64,000 nt of DNA from Minisyncoccota bacterium (lineage in GTDB: Bacteria > Patescibacteriota > Minisyncoccia > Phycocordibacterales > SBAW01). The DNA lies in the NCBI GenBank assembly GCA_035546615.1, contig DASZWM010000002.1, positions 15,460-79,459 on the forward strand, written 5' to 3'. The position numbers and the translations under genes are program-made. Positions 32,314 to 34,026 of this stretch are shown piece by piece (within the stretch, counting starts at the first letter, position 1; the number at the start of each line of letters is the position of its first letter). The notes below the pieces were generated by a model. The model was given only the letters and a program-made list of their open reading frames with translations, was not told where the DNA came from and did no database searches.

Positions 32314-33414
32314 ATGCGCAATAGGGGTGCCGTACTCATATTTGCGGGAGGGCTGCTCTTTACCCTCTTGCCGTTTATCGCCTCGGCCGCCGGGATTGTT
32401 CCATGTGGCGATACCACGGGCCTTGCGCCAGGTACTCCTCAGTATTACGCGGCCGCAACAAGTTGTCAGGCATGCAGCGTAATTCAACTGATTCAGACCC
32501 TTATTAACTTCATGATAGGACTCTCCATTCCTATCGCGATGGCGCTCTTCGCCTGGGCCGGCGTCCTGTATTTTACAGCCGCTACCAAGGAGGAGAATAT
32601 ATCAAAGGCAAAGAGCATTTTCCGCAGCGTATTTGTCGGATTCATCATAGTTCTCGGCGCATACCTTATGGTAGAGACGCTCCTGCACGCCATTCTTAAT
32701 CAGGATTACTTTACCGGCTGGAACAAGATCGAATGCGTTGATAATACCAAGCGCCCAACCCAGGGCACGCTCGGTCAACTGATAAATGAAGTAATAGGCC
32801 ATCCGGAAGATTCTTTAGTTGTTGGGAAGGCTCCTGTCGCGGTAAGCGATCCGTCTACATGTACCGGCAAACTGAGCTACGACAGCTCTATCAATCAGTA
32901 TTACTGCTTGAATACAGTCAGCGGCATGGTCAGTCAAACAGGCTCTGGACAGTGTGCGCCCGGCAGCATACAAGCTGCTGCTGCGGCGGGAGGATATCCC
33001 ATTACACCAGCACAAGCTCAGACCTTTTCCTGCCTTGCGGCTCCGGAAAGCGGTTGCCAAGGGAATCCTGGCCAAGCCAGGACGCCGACCGGCGACCCGA
33101 CAAGCGCTTCCGGCCATTTTCAGATCGTCCTTGGCCTCAATGATCAGTGTCATAATCTGAATATTCCTGCATGCACCCAGGCTGCGCAAGCAGCCGGCTA
33201 TTCGGTAAGCGGGAATCTCAATTGCTCCAGCCACTTCAGGGGAGGCGTTCCTATAGACGCAGTAGGACAGGCATGCAAGGCGGCGGCAAGCAACTTTACC
33301 TGCAATGCTTCGGCTGCGGCTTGTCTGGTAACGCAGAATCCAAGCTTTAGCGACTGGACGGCGGACCCTCGCAGCAGTTCACAGAAATCATGCGTCAATA
33401 CGTATAATCATTAG
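32314..33414 (+). CDS. TrbC/VirB2-like pilin-family protein with long Cys-rich C-terminal extension, paralog 5
   Basis: N-terminal signal, Cys triplet (PCGD...SCQACS), IPIAMALFAWAGVLYF-loop-VFVGFIIVLGAYLMV as in the 19.8-21.4 kb array, then about 230 aa with more than 12 Cys. Confidence 0.5.
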   Translation: MRNRGAVLIFAGGLLFTLLPFIASAAGIVPCGDTTGLAPGTPQYYAAATSCQACSVIQLIQTLINFMIGLSIPIAMALFAWAGVLYFTAATKEENISKAKSIFRSVFVGFIIVLGAYLMVETLLHAILNQDYFTGWNKIECVDNTKRPTQGTLGQLINEVIGHPEDSLVVGKAPVAVSDPSTCTGKLSYDSSINQYYCLNTVSGMVSQTGSGQCAPGSIQAAAAAGGYPITPAQAQTFSCLAAPESGCQGNPGQARTPTGDPTSASGHFQIVLGLNDQCHNLNIPACTQAAQAAGYSVSGNLNCSSHFRGGVPIDAVGQACKAAASNFTCNASAAACLVTQNPSFSDWTADPRSSSQKSCVNTYNH

Positions 33415-33417
33415 GAT

Positions 33418-34026
33418 ATGAAAAGCACTACTCTATATGGACTTATAGGATTGGGGGTCATCGCAGTGCTTTTTGCGGGCATATGGATCTGGCGCACGAC
33501 GTCCGCTGCGCCTGCGGAACAAATTCCCTCCAATGACGGAACCCCGGTATCCATCGGCGGAAATTCCTCTTCTGTAAATGTTCCGGTAAACCCGTCAAAT
33601 CCATCTTCCGGCAGGGATACGGAGCCGACTATCTCAATTAGCGGTCAAAACGGAAGTTCTTTCGTAACGAAAGACTTCATCCATAACGGGGAGACCGCTT
33701 CTGACGTGGTAAATCCGGGCAATTACTATCTGGCAGGCTCTATCGGATACTGCCTTGCTGACGGCAGATGTCCGGCAGGAGCCACCACTACGGATTTTAA
33801 CGTGAGCTATGACAGCAACCACAGCTCATTCAGTATATTGTTGCTGGAAGAACCGCTGGGCCAATCCCGACTCCATGCCGAAACATTCCTTGAGGAAAAG
33901 CTCGGCCTTACGGAGGCTCAATTGTGCGGCCTCAATTATTGGCTGGGCACGACCTATTGGGTAAACGAGATCTACGCCGGCAAGAACCTCGGATTCAGCT
34001 TCTGCCCGGGCGCGACCCAGCTCTAG
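33418..34026 (+). CDS. membrane-anchored secreted hypothetical protein
   Basis: N-terminal TM, a Ser/Pro-rich linker and a Cys-containing domain; 3 nt downstream of paralog 5. Confidence 0.45.
   Translation: MKSTTLYGLIGLGVIAVLFAGIWIWRTTSAAPAEQIPSNDGTPVSIGGNSSSVNVPVNPSNPSSGRDTEPTISISGQNGSSFVTKDFIHNGETASDVVNPGNYYLAGSIGYCLADGRCPAGATTTDFNVSYDSNHSSFSILLLEEPLGQSRLHAETFLEEKLGLTEAQLCGLNYWLGTTYWVNEIYAGKNLGFSFCPGATQL

What the first reader, a model, noticed from the sequence alone, without database searches (positions are those of the whole stretch)
32314..34026. Fifth pilin-family paralog fused to a roughly 230-aa Cys-rich domain, followed by a secreted Cys-containing partner
The N-terminal 120 aa match the two-helix pilin-like module of the array. 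The C-terminal region carries more than 12 Cys in a Gly/Ser/Ala/Gln-rich context, consistent with a disulfide-rich tip or adhesin domain. The adjacent gene encodes a membrane-anchored secreted protein with a CxxxGxCP motif.
Basis: partly seen in the sequence, partly recalled or inferred. Interest (0 to 1): 0.55.

Follow-up and report, generated by a model that had tools for sequence, protein, structure and literature searches.

The report
Pilin-anchored lysozyme-like enzyme with conserved partner
In this ultra-small (CPR/Patescibacteria) bacterium, a VirB2-type "pilin" membrane module is fused to a previously unannotated, disulfide-locked lysozyme-like cell-wall-cutting domain, and it is always followed by one uncharacterised membrane-anchored partner gene, so it is most likely a tethered wall-opening enzyme rather than an adhesin.

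Summary
Gene A (32314-33414, 366 aa) has a signal peptide and a two-helix T4SS_pilin module (PF18895, above the Pfam cut-off). It has 13 Cys after residue 135. Gene B (33418-34026, 202 aa) is membrane-anchored and carries CLADGRCP.

The interpretation needs changing. The "230-aa Cys-rich domain" is a variable linker plus a conserved ~160-aa domain with 10 invariant Cys. That domain belongs to the lysozyme superfamily, on four lines of evidence:
- An invariant Glu-Ser lies at a helix end, followed by G-x-F-Q.
- Profile-profile homology (97.9%) links it to same-locus relatives that match Pfam SLT_3/SLT.
- 104 of 124 family representatives carry the pilin module.

The gene pair is adjacent in all 35 related loci. 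It sits in a fixed housekeeping context (ClpB ... MiaA-ParB-RelA), not beside a T4SS ATPase. The N-terminal half of the partner co-varies with the lysozyme subtype.

Best reading: a pilin-tethered, VirB1-like muramidase or lytic transglycosylase with a cognate binding or regulatory partner. Whether it cuts the cell's own wall or a host's wall is unresolved. This is a new variant of a known kind and is moderately interesting.

The parts
32314..33414 (+). Gene A: pilin-lysozyme fusion protein, 366 aa. It is 100% identical to a Candidatus Paceibacterota protein that NCBI names only 'pilin'.
   Evidence: ORF; identity to P0001.
32314..32391 (+). Sec-type signal peptide (aa 1-26), with a likely ASA|AG cleavage site.
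   Evidence: Hydrophobic segment aa 4-32. The cleavage site is read from the sequence and is an inference.
32464..32736 (+). VirB2/TrbC-type two-helix pilin module (aa 51-141). The helices are at about aa 59-90 and 100-129, joined by a positively charged loop (aa 89-104). The module is bracketed by C51 and C141.
   Evidence: PF18895 hit at aa 58-121, 28.4 bits against a cut-off of 26.6. Hydropathy and charge counts. C51 and C141 are invariant in 29 homologs.
32737..32928 (+). Variable Ser/Gly/Thr/Val-rich linker (aa 142-205), including the non-conserved Cys 183 and 198.
   Evidence: Mean pairwise identity is 22%, against 37% for the enzyme domain. The C141-C214 spacing is 29-160 aa across 102 relatives.
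32929..33411 (+). Lysozyme-superfamily (SLT/GH23-like) domain, aa 206-366, with 10 invariant Cys (214, 240, 248, 279, 287, 304, 321, 330, 337, 360).
33046..33051 (+). Glu245-Ser246, the predicted catalytic acid at the C-terminal end of a helix.
   Evidence: Invariant in 15 close homologs and >=90% conserved in 124 representatives. The model helix spans domain residues 28-41 and ends at Glu41, which is E245.
33112..33123 (+). G267-H-F-Q270, the counterpart of the SLT 'GLMQ' motif and the c-type lysozyme 'GIFQ' motif.
   Evidence: Q270 is invariant in 29 homologs and G267 is present in 28 of 29. The motif is aligned to lysozyme GIFQIN through relatives.
33418..34026 (+). Gene B: partner protein, 202 aa. 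It has a TM anchor (aa 3-28), a disordered stalk (aa ~29-70) and an alpha+beta ectodomain (aa ~71-202) with Cys 112/118 (CLADGRCP) and Cys 170/196.
   Evidence: AF2 mean pLDDT 87.1, and >90 for aa 71-200. Adjacent to the fusion gene in all 35 related loci.
19846..21419 (+). Array of four short VirB2-like pilin paralogs (19846-20328, 20330-20686, ~20760-21113, 21120-21419). This is the context for calling gene A the 'fifth paralog'.
   Evidence: PF18895 E-values of 5.8e-9, 3.1e-8, 2e-3 and 6.8e-5. Hairpin profile E-values of 5.5e-17 to 1.9e-7.

Best explanation
Gene A encodes a Sec-exported protein held on the outer face of the cytoplasmic membrane by a VirB2/TrbC-type two-helix hairpin with both ends outside. 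A flexible 30-160-aa linker joins the hairpin to a compact, five-disulfide lysozyme-superfamily domain.

That domain keeps the single catalytic Glu (E245, followed by Ser) and the G-x-F-Q strand of SLT-type lytic transglycosylases. At the position of the second carboxylate of c-type lysozymes it has Ala. It is therefore most likely a tethered peptidoglycan glycan-strand cleaver of the lytic-transglycosylase or muramidase type.

I propose that it opens the producer's own wall locally, which is the job done by VirB1, PrgK or TraG in type IV secretion and by FlgJ in flagella. The pilin module would act as the anchor and perhaps as the address to the site where the VirB2-like pilins assemble.

Gene B is translationally coupled to gene A. 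It encodes a membrane-anchored ectodomain on a short stalk that binds the lysozyme domain as its cognate regulator, inhibitor or docking partner.

Shown: the domain architecture, superfamily membership, motif and Cys conservation, strict gene pairing, the conserved chromosomal context, and co-variation of the partner with the lysozyme subtype.

Inferred: enzymatic activity, topology, disulfides, physical interaction with the partner, and which wall is cut.
For: Pilin module:
- It matches PF18895 above the cut-off.
- The positive charges lie in the inter-helix loop, and all 16 Cys lie in segments predicted to be outside.

Lysozyme-superfamily membership:
- E245, S246, G267 and Q270 plus 8 Cys are >=90% conserved in 124 representatives.
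- hhalign of the core family against same-locus relatives gives 97.9%, E 6.3e-13.
- Those relatives hit SLT_3 and SLT, some above the gathering score, and the hits span the E-S and GLFQ region.
- Their profile also aligns C-x4-E-S and G-[IL]-F-Q-I-N to human lysozyme at E 0.024.
- Ala265 occupies the lysozyme Asp52/53 position.

Fusion as the family's normal architecture:
- Only 125 representatives of the domain exist among 1.84 billion proteins, and the domain is nearly always C-terminal.
- 104 of 124 representatives carry PF18895.
- The hairpin is nearly as conserved as the enzyme domain: 32% against 37% mean pairwise identity, compared with 22% for the linker.

Gene pairing:
- The partner lies directly downstream in all 35 loci with gaps of a few nt. 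The gap is 3 nt here.
- Partners beside SLT_3-type variants lose the GYC..C loop and the DFIHNGET motif but keep the C-terminal half.

Context and literature:
- The context ClpB-(L33)-pair-MiaA-ParB-RelA-TopA is conserved, which fits a core, vertically inherited function.
- VirB1-like hydrolases are missing from most Patescibacteria that have VirB2 pilins, and monoderm VirB1 analogues are membrane-anchored (PMC12102498).
Against: - The query's C-terminal domain has no direct Pfam, NCBIfam or PDB sequence hit.
- The loop after Glu-Ser is modelled with low confidence (pLDDT 58-69).
- No T4SS ATPase or other T4SS gene lies in the 64-kb window or in the flanks of related loci. The link to type IV secretion therefore rests only on the pilin-module homology.
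- The partner/lysozyme co-variation may reflect a single lineage split rather than repeated co-evolution.
- Nothing tested distinguishes the cell's own wall from a host wall.
Confidence: 0.5

Rival explanations
1. Pilus-displayed host-wall enzyme. The fusion co-polymerises as a minor pilin into a VirB2-type pilus of this monoderm epibiont and presents the muramidase to the host cell's wall, for attachment, feeding or entry. The membrane-anchored partner is an immunity protein or chaperone that keeps the enzyme off the producer's own wall.
For: - The hairpin stays a bona fide PF18895 module in 104 of 124 representatives. It is conserved almost as much as the enzyme domain, which is more than a simple anchor needs.
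- In VirB2 pili both termini face outward (established knowledge), so a C-terminal cargo would be exposed.
- A four-gene pilin array lies in the same window.
- Pilin arrays and T4SS are essential for epibiotic growth in Southlakia (PMC12857230; PMC12102498).
Against: - There is a single conserved copy at a fixed housekeeping locus, with 40-60% identity across the clade. Polymorphic effector/immunity pairs do not usually look like this.
- A 25-kDa C-terminal cargo on every subunit would probably block VirB2 packing, so it could be at most a rare or tip subunit. This is an inference.
- The TipC2 similarity is weak and is followed by unrelated folds.
- There is no evidence for a pilus in this lineage.
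Confidence: 0.25
2. General housekeeping autolysin unrelated to type IV secretion. An ancestral pilin gene was recruited merely as a membrane anchor for a wall-remodelling lytic transglycosylase used in growth or division. The partner acts as its activator or stabiliser, as in the SleB-YpeB pair.
For: - Synteny with ClpB, L33, MiaA, ParB, RelA and TopA is invariant, and no T4SS genes are nearby.
- The gene pair is translationally coupled.
- Some loci add a second pilin-anchored domain whose homologs travel with peptidoglycan-binding domains.
Against: - The hairpin is conserved at family-specific positions (G83, A99, G109, C51, C141), which goes beyond plain hydrophobicity.
- The domain family is almost never found without the pilin module.
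- This reading overlaps the best explanation and differs only in whether the VirB2 system is involved.
Confidence: 0.15
3. One reading: a non-catalytic, disulfide-rich tip or adhesin domain on a pilin, with a secreted Cys-containing co-adhesin.
For: - The domain is extracellular, Cys-rich and stably folded.
- T4SS-pilin proteins have been suggested to be host-adhesion-related in Patescibacteria (PMC10936435).
Against: - Glu-Ser and G-x-F-Q are >=90% conserved across 124 representatives. That is the expected signature of retained catalysis.
- The closest families are all glycosidases.
- No adhesin family matched.
Confidence: 0.07

Closest known systems
VirB1-like peptidoglycan hydrolases of monoderm type IV secretion systems (PrgK of pCF10, TraG of pIP501, Tn916-type hydrolases)
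   Different: Here the anchor is a VirB2-type pilin hairpin rather than a single TM helix. There is no CHAP, NlpC/P60 or LytM second domain. The gene is not in a T4SS operon. The domain is disulfide-locked and too divergent for the SLT HMMs.
VirB2/TrbC pilins and the VirB2-like pilin arrays of Patescibacteria (Pfam PF18895; Southlakia epibionticum array)
   Same: The N-terminal module passes the PF18895 threshold and has a signal peptide, two helices and a basic loop. A four-gene array lies in the same window. Arrays of 2-11 pilin genes are described in PMC12102498.
   Different: Canonical pilins are about 70-120 aa with no cargo. This protein carries a 225-aa C-terminal extension with an enzyme domain and sits alone at a housekeeping locus.
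Pfam SLT_3 (PF18896) and SLT (PF01464), the GH23 lytic transglycosylases
   Same: Shared features are the E-S motif at a helix end, [ST]-A-x-G-[LM]-[MF]-Q, Ala at G-2, and the lysozyme fold. Same-locus relatives hit these models.
   Different: The query and its core subfamily score below every Pfam threshold. They carry 10 invariant Cys and extra conserved motifs (CHNLNIPxC, GNLNC, DWTADxR) that the models do not describe.
c-type lysozyme (GH22)
   Different: The second catalytic carboxylate (Asp52/53) is Ala265. The sequence similarity is marginal and is absent for the core-family profile.
FlgJ (flagellar rod-cap domain fused to a muramidase) and EtgA-EscI (type III secretion lytic transglycosylase that docks on the inner rod)
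   Different: The structural modules are unrelated, and those systems are in diderms. No axial structure has been shown here.
Enzyme plus cognate membrane-anchored partner pairs: SleB-YpeB, Tse3-Tsi3, TelC-TipC2
   Different: The partner shows no sequence or convincing fold relationship to any of these. The pair is core and syntenic rather than patchy.

Membership tests
T4SS_pilin (PF18895), VirB2/TrbC-like pilins | The profile HMM score reaches the curated cut-off. | tested here: met
   28.4 bits against 26.6, aa 58-121. 104 of 124 family representatives also match.
T4SS_pilin (PF18895), VirB2/TrbC-like pilins | A signal peptide, then two hydrophobic helices joined by a short basic loop. | tested here: met
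   Hydrophobic segments at aa 4-32, about 54-90 and 100-129. The loop at aa 89-104 has 4 K/R.
T4SS_pilin (PF18895), VirB2/TrbC-like pilins | A small protein consisting of the pilin module only. | tested here: not met
   The protein is 366 aa, with a linker and a 160-aa enzyme-like domain.
T4SS_pilin (PF18895), VirB2/TrbC-like pilins | Encoded with or near virB4 or other T4SS genes. | tested here: not met
   No T4SS ATPase was found among the large ORFs of the window or in the flanks of related loci. The rest of the genome was not examined.
T4SS_pilin (PF18895), VirB2/TrbC-like pilins | Polymerises into an extracellular pilus. | not testable with these tools
   This needs microscopy or biochemistry.
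SLT / SLT_3 lytic transglycosylases (GH23, Pfam clan Lysozyme) | The query itself matches the family HMM. | tested here: not met
   The 238-aa C-terminal region has no Pfam hit even at E <= 10. NCBIfam gives none either.
SLT / SLT_3 lytic transglycosylases (GH23, Pfam clan Lysozyme) | Homology is demonstrable through intermediate sequences. | tested here: met
   hhalign of A2 against A3 gives 97.9%, E 6.3e-13. A3-type relatives hit SLT_3 at E 2.6e-7, and P0031 hits SLT_3 at 31.7 bits and SLT at 24.3 bits, both above cut-off. These relatives occupy the same locus.
SLT / SLT_3 lytic transglycosylases (GH23, Pfam clan Lysozyme) | A catalytic Glu at the C-terminal end of a helix, followed by Ser, and a downstream G-L-M-Q-type motif with Ala at G-2. 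| tested here: met
   E245-S246 and G267-x-F-Q270 are conserved, and A265 is present in 21 of 29 homologs. The model helix ends at the Glu.
SLT / SLT_3 lytic transglycosylases (GH23, Pfam clan Lysozyme) | Lysozyme-type fold. | tested here: met
SLT / SLT_3 lytic transglycosylases (GH23, Pfam clan Lysozyme) | Produces 1,6-anhydro-MurNAc muropeptides. | not testable with these tools
   This needs an enzyme assay with LC-MS.
c-type lysozyme (GH22) | Glu35 plus Asp52/53 catalytic pair. | tested here: not met
   The Glu equivalent is present, but the Asp position is Ala265.
c-type lysozyme (GH22) | Significant sequence similarity. | tested here: inconclusive
   The relatives' profile (A3) reaches E 0.024 to human lysozyme. 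The core-family profile (A2) finds no lysozyme at E <= 10.
Proteinaceous lysozyme inhibitors or immunity proteins (Ivy, MliC/PliC, PliG, Tsi3, TipC2), tested for gene B | Sequence or fold match to a known inhibitor or immunity family. | tested here: inconclusive
Proteinaceous lysozyme inhibitors or immunity proteins (Ivy, MliC/PliC, PliG, Tsi3, TipC2), tested for gene B | Binds and inhibits the adjacent enzyme. | not testable with these tools
   Only indirect evidence is available: strict adjacency (35 of 35 loci) and co-variation of the partner's N-terminal half with the lysozyme subtype.

The most novel reading that the evidence does not exclude
A monoderm CPR bacterium builds a VirB2-type pilus that incorporates this fusion as a specialised subunit. 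The pilus therefore carries a disulfide-stabilised muramidase that breaches the host cell wall. The co-inherited partner is a dedicated membrane-anchored immunity protein or chaperone of a new fold. This would be the first 'enzymatic pilin' of a type IV secretion pilus, and a direct molecular handle on how Paceibacteria attack or tap their hosts.
Probability: 0.2. Interest if true: 0.8.

Novelty: new variant of a known kind. Interest (0 to 1): 0.55.

Why it matters
VirB2-like pilins and type IV secretion genes are among the few systems shown to be essential for the epibiotic life of Patescibacteria. A recent survey concluded that most genomes with VirB2 pilins lack any VirB1-type wall hydrolase (PMC12102498).

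This locus shows that, in one clade of Paceibacteria, a lysozyme-like domain invisible to the standard HMMs is fused directly to a VirB2-type module. It is kept as a core, syntenic gene together with an uncharacterised partner. That has three consequences:
- It re-annotates a family now labelled only 'pilin' or 'hypothetical'.
- It supplies a candidate for the missing wall-opening activity.
- It defines a compact two-protein system (a 160-aa enzyme domain plus a 130-aa ectodomain) that can be tested in vitro without culturing the organism.

If the enzyme is displayed on a pilus against host walls, it would be a new mechanism of host interaction.

Tried and rejected
- Direct annotation of the query's C-terminal region failed. 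Pfam at E <= 10, NCBIfam, PDB sequence search with the single sequence and with the core-family profile gave nothing relevant. The only hits were spurious (dynein LIC, RC-U).
- Foldseek against PDB gave no significant match (best E 0.71), although nearly all the weak hits were hen lysozyme.
- I considered that the pair lies on a mobile or T4SS island, because it is flanked by tRNA-Tyr and tRNA-Trp and has slightly lower GC. I rejected this because the same neighbours recur in all related genomes.
- I guessed from memory that the C-terminal domain of the third gene in related loci is a peptidase-M15-like domain. No tool supported this. Only its association with peptidoglycan-binding domains in homologs was seen.
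- A search for literature on the SLT_3 family returned only irrelevant papers.
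Full report
**What is there.** The window comes from a Candidatus Paceibacterota (CPR/Patescibacteria) genome. Gene A is 100% identical to an NCBI protein named only 'pilin'. Gene A is 32314-33414 (+), 366 aa. Gene B is 33418-34026 (+), 202 aa. Only 3 nt separate the TAG of A from the ATG of B, and an AGGA overlaps the end of A. The pair lies between tRNA-Tyr (32152-32235, -) and rpmG/tRNA-Trp (34260-34331).

**Check of the observation.** All the descriptive claims hold, with two corrections.
- Residues 58-121 of A match PF18895 T4SS_pilin above the curated cut-off (28.4 against 26.6 bits).
- A hairpin profile built from relatives finds exactly five such ORFs in the six-frame ORF set of the window. 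They are gene A and four short paralogs at 19846-21419. 'Fifth paralog' is therefore right, though the array is about 11 kb away.
- A has 16 Cys, 13 of them after residue 135.
- B has one N-terminal hydrophobic helix and CLADGRCP at aa 112-119.
- First correction: the array is not adjacent, as noted above.
- Second correction: the '230-aa Cys-rich domain' is two things. The first is a poorly conserved linker, with a C141-C214 spacing of 29-160 aa in 102 relatives and 22% mean identity. The second is a conserved ~160-aa domain with 37% mean identity. That domain has ten Cys invariant in close homologs.

**Identity of the C-terminal domain.** The query itself matches no Pfam, NCBIfam or PDB sequence. 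Homologs are more informative.
- Several of the 35 homologs carry precomputed SLT (PF01464) or SLT_3 (PF18896) domains behind the pilin module.
- In the alignments the core family has invariant or near-invariant E245-S246, G267-x-F-Q270 and Cys 214, 240, 248, 279, 287, 304, 321, 330, (337), 360.
- A profile of 15 core-type domains aligns to a profile of 6 SLT_3-type relatives with 97.9% probability, E 6.3e-13, over 121 columns.
- Those relatives hit SLT_3 (best E 2.6e-7) and SLT. For P0031 and P0010 the hits are above the gathering scores, and they lie over the E-S ... GLFQ stretch.
- The SLT_3-type proteins sit at the same chromosomal position, after ClpB and before a ~190-aa partner and L33. 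They are positional orthologs, not merely proteins that share the pilin module.
- The relatives' profile also reaches c-type lysozymes in the PDB at a marginal E of 0.024. It aligns the Cys five residues before the Glu, the E-S pair, G-I-F-Q-I-N, a later Cys and the Trp of the C-terminal helix.
- At the position of lysozyme Asp52/53 the family has Ala265, as SLT enzymes do.

Taken together, the domain is a divergent lysozyme-superfamily member. It keeps the single-Glu catalytic signature of GH23-type lytic transglycosylases. It also has an animal-lysozyme-like reliance on disulfides.

**How general the fusion is.** A profile search of 1.84 billion representative proteins finds only 125 proteins with the domain (E <= 1e-3). 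The domain is nearly always at the C-terminus of proteins 310-360 aa long. Of 124 scanned, 104 have PF18895, 15 SLT_3 and 8 SLT, and single members hit other Lysozyme-clan families. The fusion to a VirB2-type module is therefore the family's normal state.

The hairpin is conserved nearly as well as the enzyme domain (32% against 37%), including G83, A99, G109 and the bracketing C51/C141. Charge distribution fits an N-out/C-out hairpin after signal-peptide cleavage. So does the fact that every Cys lies outside the hydrophobic helices and the basic loop. The lysozyme domain would then be on the outside. The topology itself is inferred from what is known of VirB2 pilins.

**The partner.** Gene B has 261 detectable homologs, all uncharacterised CPR proteins of about 190-200 aa. 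AlphaFold2 gives:
- a TM helix at aa 3-28;
- a disordered stalk, aa ~29-70;
- a confident alpha+beta ectodomain, with pLDDT >90 for aa 71-200.

**Synteny.** In all 35 related loci fetched, the partner follows the fusion gene directly, with gaps of a few nt. The loci came from 23 GTDB species representatives plus loci reached from fusion or partner homologs. The surrounding order IF-2/cysteine desulfurase/ClpB-(L33)-pair-MiaA-...-ParB-RelA-TopA recurs. No T4SS ATPase is present in the window or in these flanks. The pair is therefore a vertically inherited core module of this clade, not part of a mobile T4SS island.

About a dozen loci add a third gene. It encodes another pilin module fused to a different ~140-aa domain. 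Homologs of that domain occur with peptidoglycan-binding domains in actinomycetes. This gene is absent from the window.

**Co-variation.** The four partners next to SLT_3-type variants (L032-L035) lack both, but keep the C-terminal half (EPL..R..AE..LG..C.L.Y...NLGFSFCPGA). This suggests that the N-terminal half of the ectodomain contacts the lysozyme domain. It may, however, reflect a single lineage split.

**Mechanism.**
- Best supported (0.5): a pilin-hairpin-tethered muramidase or lytic transglycosylase that opens the producer's wall locally, with gene B as its cognate binding or regulatory partner. This is the role of VirB1, PrgK or TraG, and by analogy FlgJ or EtgA.
- Rival (0.25): the fusion is a minor subunit of a VirB2-type pilus that presents the enzyme to a host wall, and B is its immunity protein or chaperone.
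- Rival (0.15): a housekeeping autolysin whose pilin module is only an anchor.

The literature frames the relevance. Patescibacteria carry VirB2-like pilin arrays that are essential in Southlakia (PMC12857230). A 3,035-genome survey found that most genomes with VirB2 lack VirB1, and it mentions no VirB2-hydrolase fusion (PMC12102498). No paper in the library describes this fusion.

**Verdict.** The thing itself is a new variant of known kinds: a VirB2-type module fused to a cryptic lysozyme-like domain, with an uncharacterised obligate partner. The pilin+SLT_3 architecture is already visible in precomputed domain tables for some relatives, so the finding is not categorically new. Interest 0.55.

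Noticed in passing
L003 7618-8520 (also L004, L006, L008-L011, L013-L015, L023, L026, L028); absent from the window: In about a dozen related loci a third gene follows the partner. It encodes another T4SS_pilin module (PF18895, E 1.7e-9) fused to a ~140-aa Cys-containing domain with no Pfam or PDB match. Homologs of that domain occur as small secreted proteins in Streptomyces and Lentzea, fused to PG_binding_1 or SH3_3, and in rotifer and springtail genomes. This suggests a second pilin-anchored wall-active domain.
   Followed up: partly
L032 5891-6457, L033 6498-7088, L034 3999-4586, L035 4346-4924: Partner orthologs that sit next to SLT_3-type lysozyme variants lack the GYC...C(P) loop and the DFIHNGET motif, but keep the C-terminal half of the ectodomain. 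This is co-variation between the partner and the enzyme subtype.
   Followed up: partly
window 32464-32472 and 32734-32736 (Cys51/Cys54 and Cys141 of gene A): C51 before helix 1 and C141 after helix 2 are invariant in 29 homologs. They could form a disulfide that staples the two outer ends of the pilin hairpin, which recalls the head-to-tail cyclisation of T-pilin. Array members also have Cys near both ends.
   Followed up: no
window 32299-32316: An extended -10-like TGcTACAAT ends 7 nt before the ATG of gene A, and there is no Shine-Dalgarno sequence. The transcript may be leaderless. The consensus scan did not report a + strand promoter there.
   Followed up: no
window 55432-58300: GC drops to 0.37 (against a window background of ~0.58-0.62) immediately after tRNA-Gln. 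The island encodes a 557-aa membrane protein, a 185-aa membrane protein and a 107-aa protein. None of the three has a PADLOC hit. This may be an integrated foreign island.
   Followed up: partly
window 42048-46699 (-): A full-length AcrB-family RND transporter (E 1.7e-183) lies next to a HlyD-type membrane-fusion protein, in a lineage regarded as monoderm.
   Followed up: no
window 19846-20328 (+): The first pilin of the array carries a short tandem peptide repeat (SSGGNTLPTS, two copies plus a degenerate third) between the signal peptide and the pilin module. An SBP_bac_1 solute-binding protein gene (18541-19842) lies directly upstream of the array.
   Followed up: no
window 21481-23576 (-): Directly downstream of the pilin array, on the opposite strand, lie a 273-aa multi-TM protein with a Cys-containing C-terminal tail and a 424-aa SPFH/Band-7 protein. 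Whether they relate to the pilins is unknown.
   Followed up: no
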